A stretch of 64,000 nt of DNA from Candidatus Eiseniibacteriota bacterium (lineage in GTDB: Bacteria > Eisenbacteria > RBG-16-71-46 > CAIMUX01), in contig JAWKQE010000005.1 in NCBI GenBank assembly GCA_041390305.1, positions 144,380 through 208,379 of the forward strand, written 5' to 3'. Both the position numbers and the translations under genes were made by a program. Under the pieces are notes generated by a model. The model saw nothing but the letters and a program-made list of their open reading frames with translations. It searched no databases and was not told the origin of the DNA. How positions within the stretch are numbered: position 1 is the stretch's first letter; each line of letters opens with the position of its first letter. Positions 1,164 through 34,484 of the stretch are shown here, one piece after another.

Positions 1164-1515
1164 GGTTCCTCCTGGATTGCGTGTATGGCTCGATCAGTTC
1201 CGAGTGAGGTAACGCAAGGCCCGTGCCATGCGGAACAGCACGGGAAACACCCAGCCGAAGCCAGGCGGTAAACACCTTGCCCTTAGTCGCTTACGAGTGC
1301 CCCCACCCACACAGGGTGTCTACGCCAGGCATGGATGGGAACGGGGTCGCGCCCGGTGTGGCTTGTAACGAATGCACCGGGTTGTAAGCCGGGATGTGTG
1401 TAGGTCGACGCACACGGCTGCGGCATCCTGCGATGCGCCGGGCAGCCGGCGGTGCTACTCTATTGACGTCAACGCGGCATCCGATCGAACCGCACTCCTC
1501 GAGGGAGGAACGGTC

Positions 1516-4011
1516 ATGAGACGCACCGCCTCCGCTTCCGCCTCCGCCTTCGTTCCCGCCTTCGTCACCGACCTCGGATCCGTCCTCGCTTTCGTCACCC
1601 TGCTGGCCGGGCTCGTGGGAACCGCGCACGCCGACCGTCCCTTCGGTCCGAACGTGGGAGGAATGCTCGTTCTCCACGCAAGCACGTCGACCGAGTACAC
1701 CGCGGACGACGACTACTGCGGTCTCTCCGGACTCACGGATTGCGCAAACGCCGTCGTGCGCTCGGACCAGGCGGAACCCGTCGTGATCCACGCGCTGGCC
1801 GCGTTCTCGCCAGAGCAAGGCTCCCGACTCCAGGCATTGGTGTTTGGGATCGACTACGACGCCAGTGTCGCGCTCGAGAACTGGAAGGTCTGCGGCGACT
1901 TCGAACTCCCGCAGGACCAATGGCCCGAGCCCGGAACGGGGGTCGCGGTCACATGGGCCGATGCGCAGACCGACGAACTCGTCGAAGTCTATTGGTTCGC
2001 GGCCTACTCGGCGTACGAACGACCTGGGCACCTGAACCTCGGACCTCACCCAACGCAGGGCGCATTCTTCGCCGACGATTCCGTCCCGGCCTATCTGGAC
2101 CCGATCGTCGCGTTCGGCTCCTTCGGCTTCTACACCGACGGTTTCGTCGCCTGTCCACTGCAGGAGGGAACCTGCTGTTTCGCCGACGGAAGCTGCCAGG
2201 TGCTCTCGCTCGTGGCATGCGAGGAATCAGACGGAACCTACACGAGCTCCGATCCCAGCTGCGATCCGAACCCTTGCCCAGAGCCGGGCCAGGGTGCGTG
2301 CTGCCTCGTGCTGGGAACGTGCGAGTTCCTCTCGGAAGTGGCTTGCACGATCCGAGACGGGAGTTTCCTCGGGCTCGGCGTCGTCTGTGCGCCGAATCCC
2401 TGTCCCGCTCCTTGTGAGCCGTTCCGCTTGGCCGGGCGGCCGAGCACGACACACCGCGCGCCACGAGTCGATCCGTTCTCCTCCGGCTCGTCCCGACGCC
2501 CACGCGTCGGCCCGAACCGGGGCGGCACGCTCGTCCTCCATCTGGACAGCGAGTTCGTCTACTCCGGAAGCGGCGTCCCCGCTGAGTGTGACTTCGGCAG
2601 CGTCGAGACGTGTCGTGACATCGTCGCTCGTGTCGACCAGGAAGATCCCGTGCTCCTCTACGCCGTCGCACTCTTCCCGGAAGGTTCGGAGCCGCGAGTC
2701 GTAGGCCTGACCTTCGGCATCGACTTCCCGGATTGCGTCCAGCTCCTGGAGTGGGAGACGTGTGGCGACTTCGAGGTCCCGAACAGCGATTGGCCCTCGC
2801 CGGGATCGGGAACCGCCGTCACGTGGTCGACCCCACAAGCGGGCACCGCGATCCCGGTCTACGGGTTCGTGGCGTCCGGCTACGCGGCGGAGCCGGGCGA
2901 GTTCGCGCTCGCGCCGCACCCGACTCACGGAGCTCTCTTCGCGGACGACACGGTCCCCGCGATCCTGGACCCGGTGGCGGAGCTCGGCAGCTTCGGATTC
3001 TTCCGAAGCGGGATCGTTCCCTGTCCGCAGCCACAGGACCCGATCGGCGCGTGCTGTCTCCAGGATGGCACCTGCGAGATTCTTACCGATCCCGCCTGCG
3101 CCGCGGCCGGTGGAGAGTTCGTCGGCGTGAACGTCTCGTGCAATCCGAGCCCGTGCGATCCGCCTGTCGATGGGGCATGTTGCTTCGATGACGGCAGCTG
3201 CCGGGCCCTCGACGAGGAGGAGTGCGCGGCACAAGGCGGGTACTTCCTTGGAGACGCCATCCCCTGCGACCCGAACCCGTGTCCCTCTCCCGAACCGTGC
3301 CCGAACTGGCTCTCGTTCGAGGCCCGAATCGAGCTTCGTCGGCAGGCCATCGAAGCCCGGGAACGCTCGGACGTGCCTCACGCCGCCGAGACGGGCCGCC
3401 GGCAGGGGGCAACCGCCCGCCCGGAGACATCGGGACCGTGTGGAACGCTCTACCTCAACGCGGATGGGACGTACGAGAACGCCTACGCCTGGCAGTACGG
3501 CGGGGTCACGCCGCCCAACTACGGGGCGTTCGCCGAGCGGTACTCCACGACGGACGTGAGACCGTGTGCAATCGTCCTCGACTTGGTCGGAGTCGGCAAC
3601 CAACTCCAGCAGACGATGGATCTCTACGCCTGGGACGCTGCGGACGGCCTTCCGGGCCTGGTCCTCGGAGTCCGAACCGGCGTCGATCCAGGATCCATCG
3701 GGATCTGGCCCGACGTCAGTCGCCACGCCTTCGACTTCGTGAGCGACTGCACGGACGAAACGTTCGTCGGCTATTGGGGGAACTGGCCGGATGCGACTGC
3801 CGGCTGGTACGTCGGAGCGGACCTCGACGGGTTCGGCGGCTGCCCCGTCACCCTCGTCGCGCCCGGAATCGGCTACCCGACTGGATGGCACAACGTCTCG
3901 ATCGTCTGGGGCCCGACCCAGGCGATCGGGATCGGTGGCGAGTTCGTCAAGTGCGGCGCGAGTCCGGTCCGTAGGTCGAGCTGGGGTGAGGTGAAAGCCC
4001 TGTTCCGCTAA
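1516..4011 (+). CDS. Giant secreted Cys-rich-repeat protein, paralog 1 (signal peptide, two ~190-aa 'A' modules, 4 six-Cys ~40-aa repeats, conserved C-terminal domain ending SSWGEVKALFR)
   Basis: Start chosen at the internal ATG 1516 with GGAGG SD (conserved GGTCATGAGACGC start context in all three paralogs). Signal peptide MRRTASASASAFVPAFVTDLGSVLAFVTLLAGLVGTAHA. Repeats GxCC..G.C...C..GG...C.PNPCP. Paralogous to 4296..6650 and 8681..11902. Confidence 0.85.
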   Translation: MRRTASASASAFVPAFVTDLGSVLAFVTLLAGLVGTAHADRPFGPNVGGMLVLHASTSTEYTADDDYCGLSGLTDCANAVVRSDQAEPVVIHALAAFSPEQGSRLQALVFGIDYDASVALENWKVCGDFELPQDQWPEPGTGVAVTWADAQTDELVEVYWFAAYSAYERPGHLNLGPHPTQGAFFADDSVPAYLDPIVAFGSFGFYTDGFVACPLQEGTCCFADGSCQVLSLVACEESDGTYTSSDPSCDPNPCPEPGQGACCLVLGTCEFLSEVACTIRDGSFLGLGVVCAPNPCPAPCEPFRLAGRPSTTHRAPRVDPFSSGSSRRPRVGPNRGGTLVLHLDSEFVYSGSGVPAECDFGSVETCRDIVARVDQEDPVLLYAVALFPEGSEPRVVGLTFGIDFPDCVQLLEWETCGDFEVPNSDWPSPGSGTAVTWSTPQAGTAIPVYGFVASGYAAEPGEFALAPHPTHGALFADDTVPAILDPVAELGSFGFFRSGIVPCPQPQDPIGACCLQDGTCEILTDPACAAAGGEFVGVNVSCNPSPCDPPVDGACCFDDGSCRALDEEECAAQGGYFLGDAIPCDPNPCPSPEPCPNWLSFEARIELRRQAIEARERSDVPHAAETGRRQGATARPETSGPCGTLYLNADGTYENAYAWQYGGVTPPNYGAFAERYSTTDVRPCAIVLDLVGVGNQLQQTMDLYAWDAADGLPGLVLGVRTGVDPGSIGIWPDVSRHAFDFVSDCTDETFVGYWGNWPDATAGWYVGADLDGFGGCPVTLVAPGIGYPTGWHNVSIVWGPTQAIGIGGEFVKCGASPVRRSSWGEVKALFR

Positions 4012-4295
4012 CCGCCGGCTCGATGGCCCTGGGACGCCCGGGATTCTGAGCCCGAATCCACCTCCGGCCGAACCCGGGGCCTGGAACGTCTGCACCGGAC
4101 TGTAAGGCAGCACCAACGGGAGGGTCGCTCGTGGTCCTCCAACCCCAAGCGCAACCGAGTGCGCCCGAGTACATCTTCCTGTGACTTCGGAAACTACATA
4201 CGTCCTTTCACAGTCGCCTCGTCGGTCCGCGGCCGGATTGTGATACCCTCGGCAAGCATCATCCATCCGTAGCCGCCTCTCCGAGGAGGGCCGTC

Positions 4296-6650
4296 ATGAG
4301 ACGCTGCCGATCCGGCTCCGCCTTCGCCTCCGCCTTCGCTTCCGCCTACGTCCCGAAACTCGGCGTTCCCCTTTCGATCGCCCTCGCCGCCGCGGTCGGA
4401 GTCGGCGCCCTGACGACGACCGGACTCGCCGCCGGCGGAGAGGTCAGGCCCGGCGCGGGCACGGGCGAAGGCGCCTGCTGCCTTGCGCTCGGATCGTGTC
4501 AGCTCCTCCCGGAAGCGGACTGCGATGTCGCAGGCGGCAGCTTTCTCGGTTCCGGAATCGAGTGCTCTCCGAATCCGTGTCCGCAGCCTTGCGAGCCGTT
4601 CGACTTGGCCGGGCGTCCCAGCACGACCCATCCGGCACCACCATTCGATCCGTTCCGAAGGGGAGCGTCGGACGGCGAACAGTTCGGACCGAACCGCGGC
4701 GGCACGCTCGTGCTCCATCTCGACCCGGACTTCGTCTATTCAGGCGGTGGCCTTCCCGACTGCGAGAGCGCAGGCCTCCAGTCATGCGGTGACGTCGTCG
4801 CACGGGCGGATGTCGAGGGACCCGTGCTGATCTACGCCCTGGCTCTCTTTCCCGAGGGCGCATCGCCACGCCTGACGGGAGTGACCTTCGGAATCGACTT
4901 CCCGAGCTGTGTGCAACTCCTCGAGTGGTCGACCTGCGCCGATTTCGAGATCGCGGATCCCGATTGGCCGACCCCTGGATCGGGAACCGCCGTCGCCTGG
5001 ACGACTCCACAGACGACCCTCGCGGTGCCTGTCTATCAGTTCGCCGCCTCGGGGTACGCTGCCGAGCCCGGAGAACTCGCGATCACTCCGCACCAGGATC
5101 AAGGCACTTGGTTCGCGGACGACAGCGTCCCCGCGATCCTCGATCCAATCGAAGGGCTCGGGAGCTTTGGATTCTTCCGAAGCGGCGTGGTTCCTTGTCC
5201 TCATGTCGGGGCCTGCTGCTTCCGCGACGGGACCTGCCGCGTAGTCACCGCCTCCGATTGCGATGCGGTCGGCGGAGAGTCGTTCGAGCTCGACATGTCC
5301 TGTTCTCCGAATCCCTGTCCGCAGCCGGCGCTGGGTGCCTGCTGTCTCGGAGAGGGAGCCTGCTCCGTGTTGACGTTCGACCAGTGCACCGCGAGCGGGG
5401 GCAGTTACGAGGGAGACGACACGGTGTGCAGCCCGAACCCCTGCCCACAACTCGGAGCCTGCTGCCTCTACGGCGGAAGCTGCATCATCGCAATGGAAGC
5501 GGACTGCGACGGCACGTTCCAAGGGGATGACACGAGTTGCGACCCCAACCCGTGTCCGATCTGGGGGGCTTGCTGCTTCCCGAGCGGAAGCTGCAGCTTC
5601 ACCACCTACTGGACCTGCGGATACTACGATGGAACGTTCCAGGGGCAAGGAACCGAGTGCAGCCCCAACCCGTGTCCACAACCGACAGGCGCGTGCTGCA
5701 TCGGCGAGACCTGTCAGGTCCTCTTGAGATTGGATTGCACCGCCGCCGGTGGCGAGTGGCTTGGTGCGGACTATCCATGTGACCCGAACCCGTGCCTCGA
5801 CCCCGCAGGCGCCTGCTGCTTCGCCGACGGCTCGTGTCTGTTCATCACGGAGTCGGATTGCGAGGCGCAGTTCGGACGGTACTTGTTGGACGCCTACCCG
5901 TGTGACCCGAACCCATGTCCTGTGGGCGGTGGAGACTGCGGATTCCATCTCTCATACGAAAGCCGAGTGGATCTCCGCCGTCAGGTACTCGATGCGCGCC
6001 GGCGCACCGACGTCCTCCCCGCCGTGGAAACCGGCCGCGGGGTGGGTTCCACGCTGGAATCGGGAACGGCGGGGTCCTGCGGATGGATCAAGTTCAACGC
6101 GGACCGAACGTACGAGAACTCCTACGCATGGCAGTACGGAGGCGTCGTGCCGCCGATGTATGGGGCGTTCGTGGAGATCTACGACTCCTATCGGGAGACG
6201 CCGTGCGCGATCGTCCTCGACCTGACTCAGACGGGAGGCGATGCCGGCCAGACGCTGGACCTCTACGCCTGGAGCATTGTCGCGGGTCTGCCGGGGCAAG
6301 TGCTCGGGATCCGAACTGGAGTCGATCCTGGCCCAATCGCGACCTGGCCGTCCGTCAGCGAGCACGTTCTGGAGTTCTCGAGCGACTGCGCCGATTCGAT
6401 GTTCCTCGGCTTCTGGGGAAACTGGCCGGGTGGACCCAGCGGATGGTTCGTGGGCGCCGACCTCGATGGTTTCGGTGGCTGCCCGATGACCAACATAGCT
6501 CCGGGCATCGGCTATCCGACGGGCTGGCAGAACGTGTCGATCGTCTGGGGCCCGACCCAAGCGATCGGAATCGGCGGGGAGTTCATCGAATGCGGCCCGG
6601 TTCCGGTCCAGGAATCGAGTTGGGGCAAGGTGAAAGCGCTCTTCCGGTAG
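4296..6650 (+). CDS. Giant secreted Cys-rich-repeat protein, paralog 2 (one 'A' module, 7 Cys-rich repeats, C-terminal domain ending SSWGKVKALFR)
   Basis: GAGGAGGG SD before the ATG. N-terminus MRRCRSGSAFASAFASAY... followed by a hydrophobic core. Shares the PCPQPCEPFDLAGRPST linker, the A module and the ~300-aa C-terminal domain with paralogs 1 and 3. Confidence 0.85.
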   Translation: MRRCRSGSAFASAFASAYVPKLGVPLSIALAAAVGVGALTTTGLAAGGEVRPGAGTGEGACCLALGSCQLLPEADCDVAGGSFLGSGIECSPNPCPQPCEPFDLAGRPSTTHPAPPFDPFRRGASDGEQFGPNRGGTLVLHLDPDFVYSGGGLPDCESAGLQSCGDVVARADVEGPVLIYALALFPEGASPRLTGVTFGIDFPSCVQLLEWSTCADFEIADPDWPTPGSGTAVAWTTPQTTLAVPVYQFAASGYAAEPGELAITPHQDQGTWFADDSVPAILDPIEGLGSFGFFRSGVVPCPHVGACCFRDGTCRVVTASDCDAVGGESFELDMSCSPNPCPQPALGACCLGEGACSVLTFDQCTASGGSYEGDDTVCSPNPCPQLGACCLYGGSCIIAMEADCDGTFQGDDTSCDPNPCPIWGACCFPSGSCSFTTYWTCGYYDGTFQGQGTECSPNPCPQPTGACCIGETCQVLLRLDCTAAGGEWLGADYPCDPNPCLDPAGACCFADGSCLFITESDCEAQFGRYLLDAYPCDPNPCPVGGGDCGFHLSYESRVDLRRQVLDARRRTDVLPAVETGRGVGSTLESGTAGSCGWIKFNADRTYENSYAWQYGGVVPPMYGAFVEIYDSYRETPCAIVLDLTQTGGDAGQTLDLYAWSIVAGLPGQVLGIRTGVDPGPIATWPSVSEHVLEFSSDCADSMFLGFWGNWPGGPSGWFVGADLDGFGGCPMTNIAPGIGYPTGWQNVSIVWGPTQAIGIGGEFIECGPVPVQESSWGKVKALFR

Positions 6651-6872
6651 GGCACGGGATCCGGCACCCGCGGGGTGGTGGGCTCCCAGGGCGTGAAACG
6701 GATGGGCGCAGGCAGGGCTGCGCAGAACGGCCAATCCTGCTCCCATCGCAGTCACGACGAATTCGCGGACCTATCGCGCCGAGCGCCGATGAGTTCCGGC
6801 CGCCACACCAGTCCAACGGGTAGTTGGTGGGCTCTCGCCCACGATCCACCGTCAGCTACTCAGGAGGACCCC

Positions 6873-7313
6873 TTGTCCAGCGTCAGCACATACCTCAACT
6901 TCAACGGCAACACCGCAGAGGCGTTCGATTTCTACAAGTCGGTTTTCGGAACGGAGTTCGCCGGCCCCATGATGCGCATGTCGGACCTTCCCCCGATGGA
7001 AGGCATGCCGCCGGTCGCCGAAGCCGACAAGAACATGGTCATGCACGTGGCGCTCCCCATCCTGGGCGGCCACATGCTCATGGGCACCGACACGAGCGAG
7101 AGCTGCGGGGGTCGGATTGCCAACTTCGGCAACAACGTCCACATCAGTCTCCAGCCGGATACCCGCCAGGAGACCGAGCGCCTCTTCTCGGCCCTCGGCG
7201 ATGGAGGCACGGTCACCATGCCGCTCGCGGACATGTTCTGGGGGGACTACTTCGGTTCCCTGACCGACAGGTTCGGCGTCCACTGGATGTTCAACTGCGG
7301 CGAGAAGAAGTGA
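6873..7313 (+). CDS. VOC (glyoxalase/PhnB-like) family protein
   Basis: TTG start with AGGAGG SD. Motif STYLNFNGNTAEAFDFYKSVFG...MFWGDYFGSLTDRFGVHWMF is typical of PhnB-like / 3-demethylubiquinone-9 methyltransferase-like VOC proteins. Confidence 0.7.
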   Translation: MSSVSTYLNFNGNTAEAFDFYKSVFGTEFAGPMMRMSDLPPMEGMPPVAEADKNMVMHVALPILGGHMLMGTDTSESCGGRIANFGNNVHISLQPDTRQETERLFSALGDGGTVTMPLADMFWGDYFGSLTDRFGVHWMFNCGEKK

Positions 7314-7442
7314 TCCCGTAGCGGAGTCTGCGTTGCGGGCGCGGACGGGTCGATCCGTGGGCGGTCCGTTCGCGATCCGCTGGCGCTCCGGGATGCGACT
7401 TCCCGGGCCGAACCGAGCTCGGCCCCCGGCGCGTTCGTGCTC

Positions 7443-7485
7443 GGATCGTAGGAGCCGTGGGCGGCAGGTCCGCCCGCGGCTCTTC
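7443..7485 (+). terminator. Possible rho-independent terminator (GC hairpin + CTCTTCCCTTTC) in the convergent intergenic region
   Basis: GCCGTGGGCGGCAGGTCCGCCCGCGGC hairpin followed by a T-rich tract, between the convergent VOC and PP2C genes. Confidence 0.25.
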
Positions 7486-7489
7486 CCTT

Positions 7490-8557
7490 TCAGGAGAAGG
7501 TGCAGACGAGGACGGTGACGTCGTCCTCGACCATTCCGCGTGCACGTTCCGTGGCGAGATCGGGCAGTGCCTCACAGATCCGGTCCGGATCCGCACTCCT
7601 CGTCTCGTGCGCGCATCGAGCGATGGCGTCACTCGAGAGACCGTCACTCTCCGCGTCCATGGCAACATCCTGGAGTCCGTCGCTGAAGAGCACGAGGCGA
7701 TCGCCCGCACTCCAGGCCACCGTCTGCGGGACGTGTGGCACGCCGTCGAGCATTCCGACCGGGAGGCCTGCGGAGGCCAGTTCCTCATACGAACCGTCCG
7801 CGTGGATCAGGAGTCCGGCAGGGTGTCCCGCATTGACCGCGGTCAGGGTCTCCGTCTCCGTGTCGATCGAGACGAGAAGCAGGGTCGCGAACTCTCCTGG
7901 GCCCGTGTCGGCCACGAGTACGCGGTTCAGTTCGCCGACGATCTGGGCCGGCTCCAGGTGCTGTCGCGCGAGAAGATGGAACTGGGACCGAAGCCCCGCC
8001 ATGAGAAGCGCTGCCGGCACTCCCTTTCCGGCGACATCGATCACGAGGAGGAGAGGGCGACCATTCGCGTCCAGTGTCACGTCCCAGTAGTCGCCGCCGA
8101 TGACCCGTGCCGGGCGGGTGTGCCCGGCACAGGAGAAGCGCGGGCCCTGCGGAACCGATGTCGGAAAGAGTCCGGCCTGGATGCGGGACGCAACGGCCAG
8201 CTCGCCTTCGCGATCCCTGCGTTCGAGGAGCAGGTAGCTCACGACGAAGTCGTACAGCACGAAGAGGAAGACCAGGTTCCCCGCCATGAAGAGGGCGGTC
8301 CGCGTCTCGAGGCCGAGTGCGCCGCCGAAAATTCCGATCGCGATCCCCCAGACTGCCCACGCGAGAAGGAAGGCCCACCGAACACGGGGCCGCAGCCACT
8401 GCGTGGCCCCGAGCCCGGTGAGACTCGCCTTGGCGGCGGCCTTGACGTAAGCGCGGTTGAGACTCAACGTCCGATCTCCCCCTTGGAACCGGCCCGTACC
8501 GTTCGGCCCACGGAAGCTGGGTCCGCCGAGGGTACGCGACCCAGCAGCGGCGTCCAT
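7490..8557 (-). CDS. Membrane-anchored PP2C-type Ser/Thr phosphatase (SpoIIE/RsbU family)
   Basis: Internal ATG chosen at 8557 (MDAAAG...). Upstream part of the track ORF overlaps the paralog-3 leader and looks like a shadow ORF. Three predicted TM segments, then a GGDYWD...DVAGKG...FSDG PP2C catalytic signature. Confidence 0.7.
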   Translation of the reverse strand: MDAAAGSRTLGGPSFRGPNGTGRFQGGDRTLSLNRAYVKAAAKASLTGLGATQWLRPRVRWAFLLAWAVWGIAIGIFGGALGLETRTALFMAGNLVFLFVLYDFVVSYLLLERRDREGELAVASRIQAGLFPTSVPQGPRFSCAGHTRPARVIGGDYWDVTLDANGRPLLLVIDVAGKGVPAALLMAGLRSQFHLLARQHLEPAQIVGELNRVLVADTGPGEFATLLLVSIDTETETLTAVNAGHPAGLLIHADGSYEELASAGLPVGMLDGVPHVPQTVAWSAGDRLVLFSDGLQDVAMDAESDGLSSDAIARCAHETRSADPDRICEALPDLATERARGMVEDDVTVLVCTFS

Positions 8558-8680
8558 CCCCGACTTTCGAAACGGTGATGGCCGCTCGGCCCTCCTTCCG
8601 TGAGCAGCAGCGGTCCGGGTGCTAACATTGAAGACGTTCTCGCGCACCTGCCCCCAAACCGCTACCTGGGAGGATCGGTC

Positions 8681-11600
8681 ATGAGACGCTCCACTCCCGC
8701 CTTCGCCTCCAACTTCGCTTCTACGTTCGTGTCCCTCACCTTCGTCATCCTGCTCTGTGCCGGACTCGCCTCCCCACCGGACGTCCTCGGCTGGGGTGGA
8801 CCGAACGAAGGAGGGACCTTGATCCTCCACGCCGACACGGGGACGGTGTACACGGAGGACGGTGAGTACTGCGGCCTTTCCGGACTCGCCGACTGCGGCA
8901 GTGCCGAGGTCCGGGTCGAACAGGCCGAGCCGGTCGTCGCACACGTCCTCGCCGCTTTCTTCCCCGGCTCGGGCCCGCGCCTTTCCGGCCTCGTCTTCGG
9001 CATCGACTATCCGGCGAACATCGTTCTACTCGGCCACGGGGCGTGCGGCGATTTCGAACTCCCGCAGGACGACTGGCCCGCGTCTGGAAGTGGAACCGCT
9101 GTGACCTTCGCCGAGGCCCAGACCGACGATCTCGTCGAGGTCTACTGGTTCGCGGCCTACTCCGAGTACGCGCAACCGGGTCGCCTGGAACTGGGTGCCC
9201 ATCCGACCCAGGGTGGGCTGTTCGCCGACGACTCCATCCCAGGCTACCTCGATCCGATCGCCGGCTTCGGCGCGCTCGGCTTCTCCACCGACGGGACTCT
9301 CGTCTGCCCGGCCTCCCCCGGCGCCTGCTGCTTTGGCGACGGTAGCTGCGAACTCCTCCGTCAGGATCCATGCGAGGTTCTGGAACACGGCACCTGGTAC
9401 CCGGACGTCACGTGCGATCCGAACCCGTGCCCTCCACCTCAGTACGGTGCGTGCTGCTTCGAGAGCGGAAACTGTCAGTTCACACTCGAAGAAGCCTGCG
9501 GAACGGCGGGCGGAACATGGTTCGTGGACGTTCCCTGTGATCCCAACCCCTGTCCACGCCCACCCGAGGGTGCGTGCTGCTACGACAACGGTAGCTGCGT
9601 CGTCCGCACGGCCTACGAGTGCGAGGACACCTACGGCACGTACCAGGGCGACGAGACGTCGTGCGACCCGAACCAGTGTCCACAACCGGAAGGTGCGTGC
9701 TGCTTCCCGAGCGGAGAGTGTGAAGTCCTCACCCCGGACGAGTGTGACGGCGCCGGCGGCGGCTACCAGGGCAACGGCACGCTCTGCGAACCGAACCCGT
9801 GCACGGTAGAGACCGAAGGCGCGTGCTGCCTGACCCTCGGATCGTGCGAGTTCCTTCCGGAGTCGGTGTGCGGTACGGAAGGCGGCGCGTTCCTCGGCGT
9901 CGGAACTCTCTGTTCCCCGAATCCGTGTCCACAGCCGTGCGAACCGTTCGATCTGGCCGGACGCCCGAGCACCAGCCTTCCGCGACCAGGCGTCGATCCG
10001 TTCCGGACCGGCACCCGGCGTGACGATCAGATCGGTCCGAACGCAGGAGGCGTTCTCGTCCTCCATCTCGGCCCTGCCCTCGCCTACTCGGAGGACGGAT
10101 TCCGCACGGACTGTGACCTGGGCGGCGGCATCGATGGATGCGAGGACATCATCGCCCGCACAGACCAGGAGGAACCGGTCCTCGTCTACGCGGTCGCACT
10201 CTTCCCGACCACCTCGGCACCCCGCCTCCTCGGGCTCACGTTCGGGATCGACTTCCCCGACTGTGTGCAGCTCCTGGAATGGGAGTCGTGCGGAGACTTC
10301 GAGATCGCGGACGACGACTGGCCGTCGCCCGGGTCTGGAACCGCGATGACTTGGACGGCGCCACAGAGGGACTTCGCCGTTCCGGTCTACAGGTTCGTCG
10401 CGTCGGGACTCGCGGCGGAACCGGGTGAACTCGCACTCGCCCCTCATCCGACGCAGGGCGCGGTCTTCGCGGACGACAGCGTCCCCTCGATCCTCGACCC
10501 GATCGCCTCGCTCGGGAGCTTCGGCTTCTTCCGCGACGGAGTCGTCCCGTGTCCGCAACCGCAGGAAGCCATCGGCGCGTGCTGCTTCGACGACGGCACC
10601 TGCCGCATCCTCACCATCCCGGGATGCAGCGACGCGGGCGGGGATTTCTTCGGCGTCAATGTCGCGTGCACCCCCAACCCATGTCCGCAACCGCCCGAGG
10701 GTGCGTGCTGCCATGCGGACGGAGTCTGCAGAGTCCTGACGCTCAGCGACTGCACATCGAGCGGCGGTGGCTACCTCGGAAACGATACGACGTGCGATCC
10801 CAACCCCTGTCCACAACCGGGCGCGTGCTGCTTCCCGAGCGGCAACTGCTCGATCCTCCAGGAGTCCGACTGCGGCGTCCACGGCGGAACCTTCCAGGGC
10901 GACAACACGACCTGCTCCCCCAATCCCTGTCCGCAGCCGACCGGAGCCTGCTGCATCGGCGAGACGTGCGAAGTCCTGACCGCGGGCGACTGCTCGAGTT
11001 CGGGCGGCTCCTGGTTCGGTGCCGACTATCCATGCGACCCGAACCCATGCCTCGAAGGCGTCGGCGCGTGCTGCTTCTCCGACGGCTCCTGCCGCTACCT
11101 CAGCGAGTCCGAGTGCGCAGACGAAGGCGGAAGCTATCTGGCCGATCAGGTCCCGTGTGACCCGAACCCCTGTCCTACCGGTGGAGAGGGATGCCCGGGC
11201 TGGATGCCGTTCGAGACCCGGATGGAGCTCCGGAGGCAGGGAATCGAGGCACGGGCACACTCCGATGTGCCGTACGCCACGGAGACTGGACGCGCGTCCG
11301 GAAGGACGAGCGGGCTCGGGACGACGGGAAGCTGCGGAACGCTCTACTTCAACGCCGATGGCACCTACGAGAACGGGTACGCCTGGCAGTACGGCGGCGT
11401 CGAGCCTCCGATGTACGGCGCATTCTCGGAGTGGTACTCCGCGGCGAGTCTGAAGGTATGCGCGGTCGTACTCGACCTCACGACGACCGGCGAACCTGCG
11501 GCGACCATGGACCTCTACGTCTGGGGCAACGACCATGGCTATCCCGGCGTCGTCCTCGGACTCCGGACCGGTGTCGACCCGGGCGCGATCGCGTTCTGGC

Positions 11601-11902
11601 CATCGGTGAGTCGTCACTCCTTCGCGATCTACGCCGACTGCGCCGACGAACACTTCGTCGGATACTGGGGAAACTGGCCGGGCAGTTACCCCAGCTGGTA
11701 TGTCGGCGCCGACCTGGACGGCTTCGGCGGGTGTCCACTCACGAACATCGCGCCCGGAATCGGCTACCCGACCGGATGGCAGAACGTGTCGGTGGTCTGG
11801 GGGCCGACGCAGGCCATCGGCATCGGCGCGGAGTTCGAGGAGTGCGGCACGATCCCCGTACAGGAGTCGAGCTGGGGGAAGGTGAAAGCGCTCTTCCGCT
11901 AG
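8681..11902 (+). CDS. Giant secreted Cys-rich-repeat protein, paralog 3 (two 'A' modules, 10 Cys-rich repeats, C-terminal domain ending SSWGKVKALFR)
   Basis: Internal ATG 8681 with GGGAGG SD and the same GGTCATGAGACGC context. N-terminus MRRSTPAFASNFASTFVSLTFVILLCAGLASP. Architecture collinear with paralog 1 but with more repeats. Confidence 0.85.
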   Translation: MRRSTPAFASNFASTFVSLTFVILLCAGLASPPDVLGWGGPNEGGTLILHADTGTVYTEDGEYCGLSGLADCGSAEVRVEQAEPVVAHVLAAFFPGSGPRLSGLVFGIDYPANIVLLGHGACGDFELPQDDWPASGSGTAVTFAEAQTDDLVEVYWFAAYSEYAQPGRLELGAHPTQGGLFADDSIPGYLDPIAGFGALGFSTDGTLVCPASPGACCFGDGSCELLRQDPCEVLEHGTWYPDVTCDPNPCPPPQYGACCFESGNCQFTLEEACGTAGGTWFVDVPCDPNPCPRPPEGACCYDNGSCVVRTAYECEDTYGTYQGDETSCDPNQCPQPEGACCFPSGECEVLTPDECDGAGGGYQGNGTLCEPNPCTVETEGACCLTLGSCEFLPESVCGTEGGAFLGVGTLCSPNPCPQPCEPFDLAGRPSTSLPRPGVDPFRTGTRRDDQIGPNAGGVLVLHLGPALAYSEDGFRTDCDLGGGIDGCEDIIARTDQEEPVLVYAVALFPTTSAPRLLGLTFGIDFPDCVQLLEWESCGDFEIADDDWPSPGSGTAMTWTAPQRDFAVPVYRFVASGLAAEPGELALAPHPTQGAVFADDSVPSILDPIASLGSFGFFRDGVVPCPQPQEAIGACCFDDGTCRILTIPGCSDAGGDFFGVNVACTPNPCPQPPEGACCHADGVCRVLTLSDCTSSGGGYLGNDTTCDPNPCPQPGACCFPSGNCSILQESDCGVHGGTFQGDNTTCSPNPCPQPTGACCIGETCEVLTAGDCSSSGGSWFGADYPCDPNPCLEGVGACCFSDGSCRYLSESECADEGGSYLADQVPCDPNPCPTGGEGCPGWMPFETRMELRRQGIEARAHSDVPYATETGRASGRTSGLGTTGSCGTLYFNADGTYENGYAWQYGGVEPPMYGAFSEWYSAASLKVCAVVLDLTTTGEPAATMDLYVWGNDHGYPGVVLGLRTGVDPGAIAFWPSVSRHSFAIYADCADEHFVGYWGNWPGSYPSWYVGADLDGFGGCPLTNIAPGIGYPTGWQNVSVVWGPTQAIGIGAEFEECGTIPVQESSWGKVKALFR

Positions 11903-14984: not shown

Positions 14985-15101
14985 GGTTCGACCTCCGATC
15001 ACCCGGATCGAACCCTGAGCCCCGACGCCCCGCGTGAGGTGCGTCGTGCGCGTGAGTCTCTCCGGCGACCCAATGGGTGGGTCCACCCCGGCAGGACCAC
15101 G

Positions 15102-30383: not shown

Positions 30384-30512
30384 CAGACTCGTTCGGGGCC
30401 ATGCAGATCGACAGGGACTCCCGGCCGCGGACCGTGATACTCTCTCCCCCTCGGTGAGTCCCCCCTCTCCTGGTAGTTCCCTCGTGCCCTGATCTCCAGC
30501 CAGGAGGCACTC

Positions 30513-31145
30513 ATGAACCTGAAACCGGCCTTCGCATCCGTTCACCGTTCGTTACCCACACTCACCGCCGCCATCGCCGTGCCCATCGCCCTTCTCGGAT
30601 TGGTCCAATCCTCGGCGATCGCCGACTGGAGCATCCCTGATCCAGCCCTCTGCTCGGTCTCACCGTGCGACGAGCTCGACGGCCTGGTTCTCACTCCAGA
30701 CAGCCCTCATCCGCAACCTGCGAGCCGGGTCGAAGTGGTGGTCAGGAACGACGGCAACTCGCCGATTCCGCATGCGTCTGTGGCAGTGGAGATAGTGAGC
30801 CCCAATCTCTTGTGCCCAACCGCGATACTCACGGAGCATGCCGACCACGACGGCCATGTATCCCTGGTCTTGGCGGGGGGTGGTTGCATCTCGGACGTCA
30901 GTCTGGCCACGGTCATCAAAGCGAACGGCATCACGATCCGCCACTACCGGAACGTGAAGAGCCCGGACTTCGACGGCAGTGGCGGAGATCTCAAGGTCGA
31001 CATCGCCGATCTGGTCGCGTTCTCGGGCGAGTTTCTCGGCACGTCGGCTCCGGGTTGTCACGACTATGACAACTCCGGCACGACGGATCTCGGAGACCTC
31101 ATCATCTTCGCGCCGACGTTCACGGACGCCAGCCACTGCCCGTAG
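30513..31145 (+). CDS. Small secreted protein with two C-terminal dockerin/EF-hand-like Ca-binding repeats, tandem paralog 1 of 3
   Basis: AGGAGG SD. Signal peptide MNLKPAFASVHRSLPTLTAAIAVPIALLGL. Motifs DFDGSGGDLKVDIADLVAF and DYDNSGTTDLGDLIIF. Ends in HCP. Confidence 0.75.
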   Translation: MNLKPAFASVHRSLPTLTAAIAVPIALLGLVQSSAIADWSIPDPALCSVSPCDELDGLVLTPDSPHPQPASRVEVVVRNDGNSPIPHASVAVEIVSPNLLCPTAILTEHADHDGHVSLVLAGGGCISDVSLATVIKANGITIRHYRNVKSPDFDGSGGDLKVDIADLVAFSGEFLGTSAPGCHDYDNSGTTDLGDLIIFAPTFTDASHCP

Positions 31146-31319
31146 CCGAGGACGGCAATTCTCGTGCGGGATCGGTTGGAACTTGTCTGCCGAAGAGGCT
31201 GAGCGGAACACTCCGGGTCGAAAGTGCTTTCCGCGCGTCCCGTCTGATATGCTCTCCATTGGTAGGTCCCCCTCTCGTGGAAGCCACCCAGCGTCCTGAT
31301 CTCCAGCCAGGAGGCACTG

Positions 31320-32000
31320 ATGAACCTGAAACCAGCCTTCGCATCCGCAAGAGTCTCGCTTCCCGCTCTCCTCATCACCCTGACCTCGACCCTTGCTCTT
31401 CTTGGATCGGCCCCGTCGGCTCGCGCAGACAACCTCGTGGACGGAGTGAGCATCGTTCCCGCAGGTTCGCCGGTATTGACGACCAACATCCCGGATCCAG
31501 CCAGCTCCTCGGTCACTCCGTGTGATGAGCTGGGCGGGGTCGTCCTGTCACCCAACGTCCCGAGTCCGCTCACGGCGACGCAGATCCAGATCGTGGTCCG
31601 GAACGTCGCAATGGCCCCGATCATCGACGCTGCGATCGAAGTTCGGTTTCACACTCCAGAACTCGTCTGCCCGAACGCCGTACTCACGGGGATGACGGAC
31701 TCCTCGGGACGCCTTTCGCTGACTCTGGCCGGTGGCGGTTGCCAAACGGACGAGTTCTTCGGCTGTGTCGTCAGGGCGAACGGCGTGACGATCCGGAACT
31801 TCAGCAACGTGAAGAGCCCGGACTTCGATGGTGCCGGTGGAGACCACAAGGTCGACATCGCCGACCTCGTCGCATTCTCGGCAGAGTTTCTCGGAACCTC
31901 GGCTCCGGACTGTCACGACTATGACAACACCGGTACGACGGACCTCGGGGATCTGATCATGTTCGCGCCGGCGTTCACGGACGCCAGCCACTGCCCGTAG
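31320..32000 (+). CDS. Small secreted dockerin-like-repeat protein, tandem paralog 2 of 3
   Basis: Near-identical upstream region and N-terminus (MNLKPAFASARVSLP...). Same two D-x-D-G/N-x-G...DL repeats. Ends in HCP. Confidence 0.75.
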   Translation: MNLKPAFASARVSLPALLITLTSTLALLGSAPSARADNLVDGVSIVPAGSPVLTTNIPDPASSSVTPCDELGGVVLSPNVPSPLTATQIQIVVRNVAMAPIIDAAIEVRFHTPELVCPNAVLTGMTDSSGRLSLTLAGGGCQTDEFFGCVVRANGVTIRNFSNVKSPDFDGAGGDHKVDIADLVAFSAEFLGTSAPDCHDYDNTGTTDLGDLIMFAPAFTDASHCP

Positions 32001-32153
32001 GCGGAGCGGCTTGCCGTTCCGCAGCCCCTGATCGCGATTCGTGACGGGGGTCAACACGGCTTGGCTTGTTCCGTGTGTGGGCATTCGCCATCCGGGCGGT
32101 GCCCGCTCCCCAAACCCCTTGGGCCCGGGTGCAGCCGGGCTCTTGGAGGAAGA

Positions 32154-32778
32154 CATGAAGTCCCACTCGTGGTTCCTGCCTCCGCGCTCTCGTTCTGTCG
32201 TCCCTGGAGTACTTCTGGTCGGAGTTCTCCTCGCACCGACCCTCGCGGCCGCCGATACGGCTCCCGCTCCGGAGCGCTGTACGGTCACACCGTGCGACGG
32301 CCTCGGCGGCGTCGTGCTGGTTCCCGACCTGCCGTCCGTCGCTCCGGCGTCCGACATCGTCGTCACCCTACGAAACGACGCCAACGCCCCGCTCCCCGCA
32401 TGGGAAGTGAGTTGCACCTTCACGGCAGGGACCCTGTGCCCGAGTGCGGTGCTGACGGGCGTGACCGATGCCAATGGCCAGGTCGCGTTCCGTTTCACCG
32501 GCGGGGGCTGTGGCCAGGGGGCCGTCGTGGCCCGCATCGACGCGTCGAACCTCACGCCCATCTACAACGTCCGCACCTTCGACGTCGTGAAGAGCCCGGA
32601 CTTCGACGGCGCGGGCGCAGACGGAGTCGTCAATGTCGCGGATCTCGTCGTCTTCTCGGGGGAGTTCCTCGGAACGTCCCCGGCAGATTGTCACGACTAC
32701 GACAACTCCGGCGCGACGGACCTGGGCGACCTCATCATCATGTCGCCCGCGTTCGTGAACCAGGTGCGATGCCAGTGA
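32154..32778 (+). CDS. Small secreted dockerin-like-repeat protein, tandem paralog 3 of 3 (more diverged)
   Basis: Internal ATG 32154 with GGAGGAAGAC SD. Signal peptide MKSHSWFLPPRSRSVVPGVLLVGVLLAPTLAAA. Motifs DFDGAGADGVVNVADLVVF and DYDNSGATDLGDLIIM. Confidence 0.7.
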
Positions 32779-33258: not shown

Positions 33259-33690
33259 TCAGGAATCCTGACTCAGGATCGCCGCGGTCTTCTCGAGCTC
33301 GTCCAGGAGCGCGAGCGCACCCCTTCCCGACATGGAGAACGGATCGAGCTTCGGCTTCTCGGAGAAGCGGAGCACGGTGCTGAGGTTCACCTTCGAGAGG
33401 TCCACCCGCCCCATCCGCCAACAGGAGAAGCGGCGCTCCCCGATCTCCTCGTAGTGGAGCAGCGTGCATTCTTCGTGACGCGTATCCTGCACGATCTTGT
33501 TGTAGAGCGCGTTCACTTCCTCCCGGCCTCCCTCGAGGAGCTGAAGAAAGACGCCGTCTCCACTCGTGCAGAGAACTCCCGTGATCCCAAGCCGTTCGTT
33601 CTTCTCCCGAGACTTGGTCAGGATCGACGCAATGACTTCCGCCTCGACCGGCCCCTTCGCGCGACTCGCATAGAGCAGACTCACCAACAC
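33259..33690 (-). CDS. BLUF-domain (blue-light sensing using FAD) photoreceptor
   Basis: GTG start with GGGGAGGGGA SD. BLUF signature YxLxYASRA...ILTKSREKNERLGITGVL...FLQLLEGGREEVNALYNKIVQDTRH. Confidence 0.8.
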   Translation of the reverse strand: MLVSLLYASRAKGPVEAEVIASILTKSREKNERLGITGVLCTSGDGVFLQLLEGGREEVNALYNKIVQDTRHEECTLLHYEEIGERRFSCWRMGRVDLSKVNLSTVLRFSEKPKLDPFSMSGRGALALLDELEKTAAILSQDS

Positions 33691-33707: not shown

Positions 33708-34484
33708 TTAGCGGCTCTCGCCCGAAAGGAGCGAGAGGAACTCTCTACGAAGGTGCGTATTCTTGAGGAACGCGCCTCGCATTATGCTGTTCGTCATCTT
33801 GGAATCCATGTCCTTCACGCCGCGCCACTGCATGCAGTAATGGTCCGCCTTCATCACGATGGCCAGCCCGTCGGGCTGCATCTTCTCCTGGAGGAGCTTG
33901 GCGAGCTGGGCCATCGCCTCCTCCTGGATCTGCGGCCGCGTCATGATCCACTCGACGAGACGGGCGTACTTCGAGAGCCCGATGAGGGCAGAGTGTTCGT
34001 TCGGAAGCACGCCGACCCAGACCTGCCCGATGATCGGGCAGAGATGGTGGGAGCACGCGCTCCGCACCGTCACCGGCCCCACGATCATGAGCTCGTTGAG
34101 GCGGGAAACGTTGGGGAACTCAGTGACGGGAGGCTCCGGCATGTAGCGCCCGCGGAACACCTCCTTGACGAACATCTTCGCGACCCGACGGGCGGTGTCC
34201 CGTGTGTTGTGGTCGTTCTCGGTGTCGATGACGAGCGCGCGGAGGACGTCCCGCATCTTCACCTCGACCTCCGCCTGGATCTCGTCCACCTCCCCTTCCT
34301 CGAGGAAGGAGCTGATGTTGTCGTTCGCGTAGAATCGACGCCCGGCGCGGAGGAGCCGGTTCCGGATCCGGTCGGCGGCCGGAGTTCCAGAATCGAAGGA
34401 ACCGGAAGGCTCGATTCCTTCCTTCTTCTGTCGTGGATTGGAGTTGGTGTCCATCCGGGACTCCGGACCTGGACCATCGTTCAT
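33708..34484 (-). CDS. folE: GTP cyclohydrolase I
   Basis: Motifs HNTRDTARRVAKMF, GPVTVRSACSHHLCPIIG and IVMKADHYCMQWRGV are diagnostic of FolE. Confidence 0.85.
   Translation of the reverse strand: MNDGPGPESRMDTNSNPRQKKEGIEPSGSFDSGTPAADRIRNRLLRAGRRFYANDNISSFLEEGEVDEIQAEVEVKMRDVLRALVIDTENDHNTRDTARRVAKMFVKEVFRGRYMPEPPVTEFPNVSRLNELMIVGPVTVRSACSHHLCPIIGQVWVGVLPNEHSALIGLSKYARLVEWIMTRPQIQEEAMAQLAKLLQEKMQPDGLAIVMKADHYCMQWRGVKDMDSKMTNSIMRGAFLKNTHLRREFLSLLSGESR

What the first reader, a model, noticed from the sequence alone, without database searches (positions are those of the whole stretch)
30513..32778. Tandem triplication of a small dockerin-like secreted protein, with the duplication including the promoter/RBS region
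Three consecutive genes encode 210-245 aa secreted proteins. Each carries two D-x-D-G-x-G...D-L Ca-binding-like repeats (DFDGSGGDLKVDIADLVAF / DYDNSGTTDLGDLIIF) resembling dockerin type I / EF-hand loops, and the same C-terminal ...DASHCP ending. Copies 1 and 2 share nearly identical upstream DNA (...TGATCTCCAGCCAGGAGGCACT[C/G]ATGAACCTGAAACC...). Copy 3 is more diverged. Dockerin-like modules usually pair with cohesin-like modules. The repeated 'A' module of the neighbouring giant proteins is a candidate partner, but that is speculation.
Basis: partly seen in the sequence, partly recalled or inferred. Interest (0 to 1): 0.6.

Follow-up and report, generated by a model that had tools for sequence, protein, structure and literature searches.

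The report
Tandem secreted Ig-plus-dockerin protein genes
Three neighbouring genes in an uncultured Eisenbacteria genome encode small secreted proteins made of a fast-evolving Ig-like domain and a conserved calcium-loop dockerin module; this is a real but fairly ordinary paralog expansion of an uncharacterised surface-protein family.

Summary
Three + strand genes (30513-31145, 31320-32000, 32155-32778) are paralogs (BLASTP E=5e-55 for the most distant pair). Copies 1 and 2 share an ~80-nt leader and start region. Each protein has a signal peptide (AxA|D), an Ig-like beta-sandwich and a 64-aa C-terminal module.

Single-sequence Pfam finds no Dockerin_1 or EF-hand. A 95-member profile of the module does hit solved dockerins (2y3n_B, E=7e-8). 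hhalign against PF00404 dockerins gives 97.4%. An AlphaFold model (pLDDT 93.6) has dockerins as its top 22 PDB matches. The closest curated family is NCBIfam NF041540 "GC-type dockerin"; the window copies score below its cutoff.

The Ig+dockerin unit always occurs as a pair. There are 753 cluster representatives, all named ones from Eisenbacteria. It also occurs 2-4 times in large T9SS-tailed proteins. A syntenic relative has two copies, so copy number varies.

No cohesin was found. The "A module" of the neighbouring giant proteins shows no cohesin similarity by sequence. It is nevertheless fused to the unit in three proteins, and A-module genes sit next to unit genes in a gene block conserved in at least four genomes.

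Binding partner and function remain inferred. Interest is moderate to low.

The parts
30461..30512 (+). Conserved 5' leader of copy 1, with the Shine-Dalgarno GGAGG and an upstream complementary TCTCCTGG
   Evidence: 86% identical to the copy 2 leader. Also conserved upstream of the ortholog in L001. RNAalifold predicts a hairpin pairing TCTCCTGG with CCAGGAGG, but there is no covariation.
30513..31145 (+). Copy 1 CDS, 210 aa. Signal peptide aa 1-37 (AIA|D). Ig-like domain about aa 42-146 (30636-30950). Dockerin-like module aa 147-210 (30951-31142).
   Evidence: ORF. Family HMM E=1.2e-93. Dockerin-module HMM hit at 30954-31136, E=1.6e-27.
31268..31319 (+). Conserved 5' leader of copy 2
31320..32000 (+). 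Copy 2 CDS, 226 aa (NCBI locus tag R3E97_05565). Signal peptide aa 1-36 (ARA|D). A 17-aa N-terminal extension shared with the L001 ortholog. Ig-like domain aa 58-162 (31491-31805). Dockerin-like module aa 163-226 (31806-31997).
   Evidence: 100% match to P0001, from a Candidatus Eisenbacteria MAG. AF2 full model: Ig domain pLDDT 80-97. AF2 of the module alone: pLDDT 93.6.
32155..32778 (+). Copy 3 CDS, 207 aa from ATG 32155 (the longer GTG 32041 start is unlikely). Signal peptide aa 1-33 (AAA|D). Ig-like domain from aa 37. Dockerin-like module aa 145-207 (32587-32775).
   Evidence: GGAGG lies 6 nt before ATG 32155. Weak Big_1 hit, 3.6e-05. Ortholog of L001 8723-9409 with 100% bootstrap. Weak dockerin_GC hit, E=0.024.
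1372..11902 (+). Three large secreted proteins (1372-4011, 4296-6650, 8600-11902) carrying the ~185-aa 'A module', GACC Cys-rich repeats and a C-terminal SWGKVKALFR tail. They are possible functional associates of the array, not part of it.
   Evidence: A-module HMM hits E~1e-86. The same module is fused to the Ig+dockerin unit in P0039, P0040 and P0118. A-module genes are adjacent to unit genes in L003/L005/L013/L019, and lie 3-5.5 kb from a unit gene or remnant in L009 and L014.

Best explanation
The three genes encode Sec-exported, disulfide-bonded two-domain proteins. Each has a rapidly diverging Ig-like (Big_1/invasin-like) beta-sandwich 'head'. It is followed by a strongly conserved 64-residue dockerin-fold module with two EF-hand-type Ca2+ loops, each followed by a helix.

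Most likely mechanism: the Ca2+-loaded dockerin module is a conserved docking or anchoring handle that attaches the variable Ig head to a partner protein in the cell envelope. The tandem paralogs supply alternative heads on the same handle.

The array grew by an old duplication (the copy 1/2 ancestor versus copy 3, shared with a related genome) and a later one (copy 1 versus copy 2) that carried the 5' leader and RBS along.

Shown: gene structure, paralogy, Ig-like fold, dockerin homology and fold, ligand residues at loop positions 1/3/5/9/12, stronger constraint on the dockerin part, obligate Ig+dockerin pairing, and genomic association with A-module proteins.

Inferred: export, Ca2+ binding, docking, and the identity of the partner. 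The A-module/GACC-repeat proteins are the only candidate with any support.
For: Paralogy.

Organism and family:
- P0001 is from a Candidatus Eisenbacteria MAG.
- The family has 753 representatives at E<=1e-3, most 190-220 aa.
- All 15 genome loci are MAGs, most titled Candidatus Eisenbacteria and none assigned to another phylum.

Dockerin homology and fold:
- Module profile against PDB: 2y3n_B E=7e-8, plus about 15 other dockerins.
- hhalign against PF00404-carrying dockerins: 97.4%, E=1.2e-11, 52 columns spanning both repeats.
- AF2 of the module: pLDDT 93.6, helices at 18-28 and 47-58.
- Foldseek: top 22 hits are all dockerins, TM 0.50-0.65.
- NCBIfam dockerin_GC is hit by 78 of 95 modules, best 6.8e-10.

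Calcium loops:
- Loop 2 consensus is D-Y-D/N-x-D/N/S-G-x-T/V-D/N-L-x-D.
- Loop 1 is the same with a 3-residue insert.

Conserved handle versus variable head:
- Copy 1 versus copy 2: dN 0.056 in the dockerin part, 0.42 in the Ig part.
- Ortholog pair copy 2 versus L001a: 0.063 versus 0.34.

Obligate pairing: the dockerin HMM finds no modules outside Ig+dockerin units in the window plus 15 loci.

Link to A-module proteins:
- Fusions P0039, P0040 and P0118.
- The block unit-A-A'-phosphodiesterase is conserved in L003, L005, L013 and L019.
Against: - No cohesin-like protein was detected in the window.
- The A module has no detectable similarity to cohesins or to any solved structure by sequence.
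- The window sequences fail the curated thresholds of Pfam Dockerin_1 and NCBIfam dockerin_GC.
- Foldseek E-values for the 64-aa model are not significant on their own (best 0.083).
- In relatives such as P0014 and P0018 the module is internal and repeated 3-4 times between Ig domains. That looks more like a structural repeat than a terminal docking tag.
- The single-unit proteins lack the T9SS-type C-terminal domain that the large relatives carry. In a diderm they could therefore stay in the periplasm.
- In the window itself the A-module genes lie about 19 kb away, not adjacent.
Confidence: 0.4

Rival explanations
1. The dockerin-fold module has no separate partner. It is a Ca2+-stabilised, disulfide-clamped structural cap that forms one rigid unit with the Ig domain. 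It would work like the X-module-dockerin dyad without a cohesin, or like the Ca2+-rigidified Ig repeats of large adhesins. The unit would be an adhesive or spacer building block of surface proteins. The three small genes would be stand-alone versions that bind an external ligand through the Ig domain.
For: - The module never occurs without the Ig domain.
- It is internal and repeated 2-4 times in P0014, P0015, P0018, P0020, P0034 and P0043, which end in T9SS-type sorting domains.
- A conserved Cys pair brackets repeat 2: C36 in 134 of 141 modules, and a C-terminal Cys.
- No cohesin was found.
Against: - Very strong purifying selection on helix surface positions, as well as on the loops, fits an interaction surface.
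- The closest homologs and structures are all cohesin-binding dockerins.
- The conserved linkage and fusion with A-module proteins suggests a specific partner.
Confidence: 0.35
2. The proteins are secreted carbohydrate-binding (lectin or CBM-like) proteins. The beta-sandwich would bind polysaccharide, and the Ca2+ loops would take part in sugar binding.
For: Weak sub-threshold profile hits of the beta-sandwich to CBM2-type xylanase/glucanase binding domains (1exg, 6qfs; E about 0.5) and to CarboxypepD_reg.
Against: - All such hits are non-significant.
- The best Pfam affinities are Big_1 and Invasin_D3.
- Foldseek shows generic Ig-like neighbours.
- No glycoside hydrolases or polysaccharide-utilisation genes lie nearby.
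Confidence: 0.08
3. The similarity is an artefact: spurious ORFs in high-GC DNA, or an assembly-generated repeat.
For: The window is 63-70% GC and full of long spurious ORFs.
Against: - GC3 of 0.77-0.80 in the coding frame.
- dN/dS well below 1.
- Hundreds of homologs.
- Orthologs sit in a syntenic locus of another MAG.
- The copies are only 44-61% identical, so they are not assembly duplicates.
Confidence: 0.01

Closest known systems
NCBIfam NF041540 'dockerin_GC' (GC-type dockerin domain-anchored protein)
   Same: - It is the only curated model that recognises the module. 78 of 95 family modules hit it, best E=6.8e-10, with near full-length coverage (model positions 4-65 of 67).
- The multi-unit relative P0014 scores 61 bits against a cutoff of 29.
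- The module sits at the C-terminus in the window proteins.
   Different: - The window copies score 15 bits or less, below the cutoff; copy 1 gives no hit at all.
- Here the module is always preceded by a specific Ig-like domain.
- In relatives the module can be internal and repeated.
- I found no published description of this NCBIfam family.
Cellulosomal dockerins (Pfam PF00404 Dockerin_1), e.g. the Pseudobacteroides cellulosolvens Cel48 dockerin, PDB 2y3n_B
   Same: - About 60 residues, internally duplicated, each half a 12-residue EF-hand-like loop followed by a helix.
- Acidic or amide residues at loop positions 1, 3, 5, 9 and 12.
- Profile E=7e-8, hhalign 97.4%, TM 0.62-0.65.
   Different: - No PF00404 hit for single sequences.
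- A 3-residue insertion in loop 1.
- A conserved Cys pair.
- Positions 10-11 are L/I-A/G, not the Ser-Thr cohesin-recognition pair that characterises type I dockerins (background knowledge).
- No cellulosome context, no glycoside hydrolases and no detectable cohesin.
- The organism is a diderm of the FCB group, not a Firmicute.
X-module-dockerin (XDoc) dyads of type II/III cohesin-dockerin systems (e.g. 2b59_B, 4u3s_B, 5k39_B)
   Same: - An Ig-like beta-sandwich lies immediately N-terminal to the dockerin and is always present with it.
- XDoc chains are among the structural matches of the module.
   Different: - The Ig domain here shows no sequence or Foldseek similarity to X modules.
- Inter-domain packing could not be assessed.
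- The resemblance is one of architecture only.
Non-cellulosomal cohesin/dockerin proteins of other diderm bacteria (e.g. the proposed 'planctosome' of freshwater Planctomycetes, PMC6461901)
   Same: Dockerin modules on secreted proteins, with no link to cellulose degradation, in an uncultured Gram-negative lineage. The function is only hypothesised.
   Different: In that case both cohesin and dockerin domains were recognised by standard models. Here no cohesin is recognisable and the dockerin is sub-threshold.
Big_1 / invasin-intimin Ig-like domains (PF02369, PF09134)
   Same: - The beta-sandwich gives weak Big_1 hits in 12 of 15 members and Invasin_D3 hits in 5 of 15.
- The Yersinia InvE adhesin is among the Foldseek hits.
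   Different: - All hits are below the gathering thresholds.
- There is no beta-barrel anchor or LysM.
- The domain has its own conserved Cys pattern (CxVTPCD ... LCP ... GGGC).

Membership tests
Dockerin type I (Pfam PF00404) | Match to the Dockerin_1 HMM at or above the gathering score | tested here: not met
   No hit even at E<=10, for the whole proteins or for the C-terminal 63 aa.
Dockerin type I (Pfam PF00404) | Profile-level homology to bona fide dockerins across both repeats | tested here: met
   hmmsearch of the 95-sequence module profile against PDB: 2y3n_B E=7e-8, plus about 15 more dockerins at E 0.002-0.06. hhalign against 4 dockerins, two with precomputed PF00404: probability 97.4%, E=1.2e-11, 52 columns.
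Dockerin type I (Pfam PF00404) | Two tandem segments, each a 12-residue Ca2+ loop followed by an alpha-helix | tested here: met
   The family consensus shows an internal duplication, DGxVdLaDLvxF versus (D/N/S)GxT/VdLxDLiiF. AF2 helices lie at 18-28 and 47-58, directly after the loops.
Dockerin type I (Pfam PF00404) | Asp/Asn ligands at loop positions 1, 3, 5, 9 and 12 | tested here: met
   Loop 2 is canonical (D184, D186, S188, D192, D195 in copy 1). Loop 1 has D152, D154, D159, D163 and D166 only if a 3-residue insertion after position 4 is allowed, as in the hhalign alignment. The geometry was not checked on coordinates.
Dockerin type I (Pfam PF00404) | Dockerin three-dimensional fold | tested here: met
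Dockerin type I (Pfam PF00404) | Ca2+-dependent binding to a cohesin module | not testable with these tools
   No Pfam cohesin match in about 38 proteins scanned from the window. The rest of the genome could not be scanned. No complex prediction was available.
NCBIfam NF041540 dockerin_GC | HMM score at or above the curated cutoff (29 bits) | tested here: not met
   Copy 2 module 14.9 bits, copy 3 15 bits, copy 1 no hit. Relatives pass (P0014 61 bits; best single module E=6.8e-10).
XDoc dyad (type II dockerin plus X module) | Ig-like module directly N-terminal to, and always accompanying, the dockerin | tested here: met
   All 20 intact dockerin-module hits in the window plus 15 loci lie inside Ig+dockerin units; the only other hit is the truncated remnant in L014. 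Most of the listed representatives match from the Ig domain through the dockerin, and the shorter matches are mainly short, apparently truncated sequences.
XDoc dyad (type II dockerin plus X module) | The Ig module is related to X modules | tested here: not met
   There are no X-module chains among the sequence hits or among the top 50 Foldseek hits of the full model.
Big_1 (PF02369) | Match at or above the gathering score (34.9 bits) | tested here: not met
   The best window score is 24.2 bits (copy 3). 12 of 15 members give sub-threshold hits. An Ig-like sandwich is predicted with pLDDT 80-97.
Canonical EF-hand pair (calmodulin-like) | Helix-loop-helix pair fold | tested here: not met
   EF-hand structures align with TM 0.24-0.34 and rmsd above 10 A. 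There are no Pfam EF-hand hits.
Cohesin (PF00963), tested for the 'A module' of the neighbouring giant proteins | Sequence similarity to cohesin models or to solved cohesins | tested here: not met
   No Pfam family for 8 A modules. Profiles of 8 and of 35 A modules against PDB give only chance-level hits, none to a cohesin.
Cohesin (PF00963), tested for the 'A module' of the neighbouring giant proteins | Nine-stranded jelly-roll fold and dockerin binding | not tested
   The structure-prediction quota (2 jobs) was already spent on the unit and the module.

The most novel reading that the evidence does not exclude
Eisenbacteria have a lineage-specific, cohesin-independent docking system. Divergent Ig+dockerin dyads would plug, in a Ca2+-dependent way, into the uncharacterised ~185-aa 'A module' of the abundant Cys-rich secreted proteins that end in the (S/T)WGxIKxxYR tail. 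Together they would assemble a modular cell-surface layer. The tandem paralogs would be interchangeable heads for that scaffold.
Probability: 0.15. Interest if true: 0.65.

Novelty: new variant of a known kind. Interest (0 to 1): 0.35.

Why it matters
Dockerin modules outside cellulosomes are widespread, and almost none has a known partner or function.

This family is large, with 753 representatives at the 50% identity clustering level. It seems confined to one uncultured phylum. It is invisible to Pfam and is annotated only as "hypothetical".

It also comes with a concrete, testable candidate partner family. The A-module proteins are linked to it by gene fusion and by a conserved gene order. 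If the docking idea were confirmed, it would describe how an uncultured soil and sediment phylum builds its surface proteome, and it would add a non-cohesin receptor to dockerin biology.

As it stands, the finding is a well-supported domain annotation plus an ordinary tandem gene expansion.

Tried and rejected
- **Pfam on whole proteins and on the C-terminal 63 aa:** no dockerin or EF-hand hit.
- **First PDB profile search with only 15 full-length sequences:** a marginal dockerin hit, E=0.19. It became significant only with the 95-module profile.
- **Word-indexed homolog search:** found only 13 relatives. The exhaustive search showed the family is far larger.
- **The look-up of encoding contigs for paralogs from the same NCBI MAG (P0007, P0010, P0176):** not on record.
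- **Seeding a dockerin alignment from 2y3n_B:** returned only 2 proteins, so the dockerin profile used for hhalign is thin (4 sequences).
- **A module as cohesin:** no Pfam hit and no PDB sequence similarity with 8- or 35-sequence profiles. Its fold was not tested.
- **Rfam on the locus:** only one sub-threshold chance hit.
- **Promoter and terminator scan:** nothing.
- **Positive selection on the Ig domain:** not supported; dN/dS is 0.2-0.6 and dS is saturated.
- **Order of the copy 1 / copy 2 / L001a split:** unresolved by NJ bootstrap.
- **A link to the nearby ECF sigma factor:** rejected, because it is not conserved in the syntenic locus L001.
- **Literature:** no paper mentions Eisenbacteria together with dockerin, or "GC-type dockerin".
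Full report
**1. Observation.**
The region 30513-32778 holds three consecutive + strand ORFs of 210, 226 and 245 aa. All three have the high-GC3 codon signature of real genes in this 63-70% GC window. The third most likely starts at ATG 32155 (207 aa), which has GGAGG 6 nt upstream.

The proteins align over their whole mature length. Copy 1 and copy 2 are 61% identical, and copy 3 is 44% identical to copy 1. BLASTP of copy 1 against copy 3 gives E=5e-55.

At the DNA level, copies 1 and 2 share an 80-nt stretch (30461-30540 and 31268-31347, 86% identity). It covers about 52 nt of leader, the Shine-Dalgarno sequence and the first 28 coding bases. They also share a 237-nt 3' block at 85% identity. 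The 20-mer ATCTCCAGCCAGGAGGCACT occurs only at these two sites in the window, with 0 expected.

The ...DASHCP ending, however, is shared only by copies 1 and 2.

**2. Organism and family.**
Copy 2 is identical to a hypothetical protein (R3E97_05565) of a Candidatus Eisenbacteria MAG. The word-indexed search found 13 relatives, including three dispersed paralogs from the same MAG.

An exhaustive profile search found 753 cluster representatives at E<=1e-3, of which 81 are at E<=1e-30. Most are 190-220 aa and match from just after the signal peptide to the C-terminus.

A scan of GTDB representative genomes returned 15 loci. All are MAGs: most are titled Candidatus Eisenbacteria, the rest carry no phylum name, and none is assigned elsewhere. 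There are up to 6-7 loci per genome.

**3. Domain anatomy.**
Each window protein begins with a basic and then hydrophobic N-terminus that ends in AxA|D (read from the sequence). This looks like a Sec signal peptide and not a lipobox.

Residues of about 42/58/37 to 146/162/144 are predicted with high confidence (pLDDT 80-97) as a beta-sandwich. The domain gives only sub-threshold Big_1, Invasin_D3 and CarboxypepD_reg hits. Its Foldseek neighbours are generic Ig-like domains: a phage Ig domain, InvE, macroglobulin and MSP.

**4. Is it a dockerin?**
Single-sequence Pfam gives nothing, even at E<=10. I extracted 142 non-redundant modules from the family.

- **Internal duplication.** The consensus is KSPD[WF]DGxx[GA]DGxVdLaDLvxF...C[HA]DYDN[DNS]GxT/VdLxDLiiFaxAF...C.
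- **Calcium loops.** Repeat 2 is a canonical 12-residue loop, with D1, D/N3, D/N/S5, G6, D/N9 and D12. Repeat 1 is the same with three extra residues after position 4.
- **Sequence profile.** A 95-sequence profile of the module alone hits the Pseudobacteroides cellulosolvens dockerin 2y3n_B at E=7e-8. About 15 further solved dockerins follow at E 0.002-0.06.
- **Profile against profile.** hhalign against a small alignment of bona fide dockerins, two of them annotated PF00404, gives 97.4% probability and E=1.2e-11 over 52 columns spanning both repeats.
- **Predicted fold.** AlphaFold2 on the module alignment gives pLDDT 93.6, with helices directly after each loop. The top 22 Foldseek PDB matches are all dockerins (TM 0.50-0.65, rmsd about 3 A). 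Calmodulin-type EF-hand proteins reach only TM 0.24-0.34. The Foldseek E-values (0.083 or higher) are not significant by themselves for so small a domain.
- **Curated family.** NCBIfam NF041540 "GC-type dockerin domain-anchored protein" is hit by 78 of 95 modules (best 6.8e-10). The multi-unit relative P0014 scores 61 bits. The window copies score 15 bits or less against a cutoff of 29.

Conclusion: the module is a divergent dockerin-fold domain and the nearest curated family is dockerin_GC. By curated thresholds the window proteins are not formal members of either model.

Features that are unusual for dockerins (background knowledge of cellulosomal dockerins):
- The loop 1 insertion.
- A conserved Cys pair bracketing repeat 2.
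- No Ser-Thr recognition pair at positions 10-11.

**5. The unit is an obligate pair and a mobile building block.**
The dockerin HMM finds no module outside an Ig+dockerin unit in the window plus 15 loci (about 290 kb). The one exception is a 5'-truncated pseudogene remnant in L014.

The unit occurs 2-4 times in tandem inside large proteins that end in FlgD_ig / T9SS type A sorting domains (P0014, P0015, P0018, P0020, P0034, P0043). It is also fused to other domains in P0031, P0070, P0073, P0114 and P0148.

The arrangement, an Ig-like domain directly before a dockerin, resembles the X-module-dockerin dyad of type II systems. The Ig domain itself shows no similarity to X modules.

**6. Evolution of the array.**
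L001, from the HK-STAS-EISE-1 MAG, is syntenic with the window. The order is UvrA-like (74% aa identity), glyoxalase (80%), then the array, then an unnamed ORF, BLUF (96.5%) and FolE (88%). L001 has two copies, not three.

Copy 3 is orthologous to L001b (100% bootstrap). Copies 1 and 2 form a clade with L001a (84-99%), and the order within that clade is unresolved. So an old duplication predates the split of the two genomes. Copy 1 versus copy 2 is a second event, either lineage-specific or lost in the relative. Tandem pairs also occur in L007 and L015. Nearly identical dispersed copies (97%) occur at two loci of the same MAG contig (L003, L004).

The dockerin part is under much stronger constraint than the Ig part:

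| Pair | dN, dockerin | dN, Ig |
|---|---|---|
| Copy 1 vs copy 2 | 0.056 | 0.42 |
| Copy 2 vs L001a | 0.063 | 0.34 |

dN/dS stays below 1 in both structured domains, so no positive selection is shown.

The ~60-nt leader is conserved between copies 1 and 2 and also upstream of L001a, even though synonymous sites in the coding region are saturated. The leader is therefore itself constrained. RNAalifold predicts a hairpin in which an upstream TCTCCTGG pairs with the CCAGGAGG Shine-Dalgarno region, but nothing covaries.

**7. Partner question.**
No Pfam cohesin match was found in about 38 proteins scanned from the window.

They consist of a signal peptide, one or two copies of a ~185-aa A module, many GACC Cys-rich repeats and a C-terminal SWGKVKALFR tail.

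The A module belongs to a family of at least 193 proteins. The named ones are all from Eisenbacteria, and the family has no Pfam annotation. It shows no similarity to cohesins or to any solved structure, with profiles of 8 or 35 sequences.

There is nevertheless comparative evidence for a functional link:
- **Fusions.** Three independent fusions exist: A+unit in P0039 and P0040, and unit+A+GACC repeats+sorting domain in P0118. P0031 joins a unit to GACC repeats.
- **Conserved gene block.** The same-strand block unit-A-A'-phosphodiesterase is conserved in L003, L005, L013 and L019. L018 has the same block, cut at a contig end.
- **Other neighbours.** A-module genes lie about 3 kb from the unit gene in L009 and about 5.5 kb from the unit remnant in L014.

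Roughly 3 of 11 independent unit neighbourhoods contain an A-module gene within 8 kb. I estimate a few per cent would be expected for a family of about 10 copies per genome. That estimate is rough and was not computed on whole genomes.

In the window the A-module genes are about 19 kb from the array. Two of four A-module loci examined reciprocally have no unit nearby. This is association, not proof of binding.

**8. Mechanism and verdict.**
The best-supported reading (confidence about 0.4) is that these are secreted Ca2+-dependent docking subunits: a variable Ig head on a conserved dockerin handle. Tandem duplication has multiplied them, and A-module proteins are the only supported candidate receptors.

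The main rival (about 0.35) is that the dockerin fold is a partner-less structural cap of a rigid Ig+dockerin building block. Its internal, repeated occurrence in large surface proteins favours this view.

Non-cellulosomal dockerins in diderm bacteria have been proposed before, for example the "planctosome" of freshwater Planctomycetes (PMC6461901). The kind is therefore known. What is new here is:
- A divergent, sub-threshold variant.
- Its obligate Ig partner domain.
- Its link to an unannotated module family.

The tandem triplication itself is ordinary.

Noticed in passing
window 1372-4011, 4296-6650, 8600-11902: Three large secreted proteins built from an unannotated ~185-aa 'A module' (GPNxGGxLVLH...CGDFE...VYWFAAY...FADDSVPxxLDPI...GSFGF), many ~35-aa GACC...PNPCP Cys-rich repeats and a shared C-terminal domain. 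The A-module family has at least 193 members, the named ones all from Eisenbacteria. Most are 290-340 aa, with no Pfam or PDB similarity.
   Followed up: partly
C-termini of the A-module proteins, e.g. window 3979-4008, 6618-6647, 11870-11899; L003 9564-9599: The A-module proteins end in a short, strongly conserved tail, (S/T)WGx(I/V)Kxx(Y/F)R followed by the stop codon. It is seen in most of about 120 family members and looks like an undescribed C-terminal sorting or processing signal.
   Followed up: partly
window 30461-30512 and 31268-31319; L001 about 7950-8000: The ~60-nt leader is conserved between copies 1 and 2 and in the ortholog of another species. It is predicted to fold so that an upstream TCTCCTGG pairs with the Shine-Dalgarno CCAGGAGG. 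This may be a translational control hairpin. There is no covariation and no Rfam match.
   Followed up: partly
window 25052-29887 (-) and 41973-45113 (+): Two UvrA-like ABC ATPase genes. The first is unusually long (1611 aa), with extra ABC/UvrA-type segments and a DAQTDAQ-type low-complexity repeat. It is conserved at 74% identity in the syntenic MAG.
   Followed up: no
window 33259-33690 (-): A stand-alone BLUF blue-light sensor protein (143 aa, Pfam E=1.3e-29), 96.5% identical in the related MAG. It lies next to GTP cyclohydrolase I (33708-34484).
   Followed up: no
window 13821-15086 (-), 35434-37608 (+), 38826-40628 (-), 53448-55970 (-), 61801-62973 (-): Many secreted proteins in the window end in a FlgD_ig-type domain, which relatives show to match the T9SS type A sorting-domain model (TIGR04183). 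The proteins include a subtilase, SGL/NHL beta-propellers and unknowns. The three small Ig+dockerin proteins lack it.
   Followed up: partly
L014 8001-8135: A 5'-truncated remnant of a family member. Only the second half of the dockerin module is left, with stop codons upstream. This indicates gene birth and death in the family.
   Followed up: yes
L003 7953-8525 and L004 7962-8525 (same MAG contig, about 730 kb apart): Two unit genes 97% identical at distant positions in one genome. Only L003 has the A-module neighbours, so this is a recent dispersed duplication of the unit gene alone.
   Followed up: partly
window 12117-13706 (+): A vanadium chloroperoxidase-like / DUF6851 protein lies just downstream of the giant A-module proteins.
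   Followed up: no
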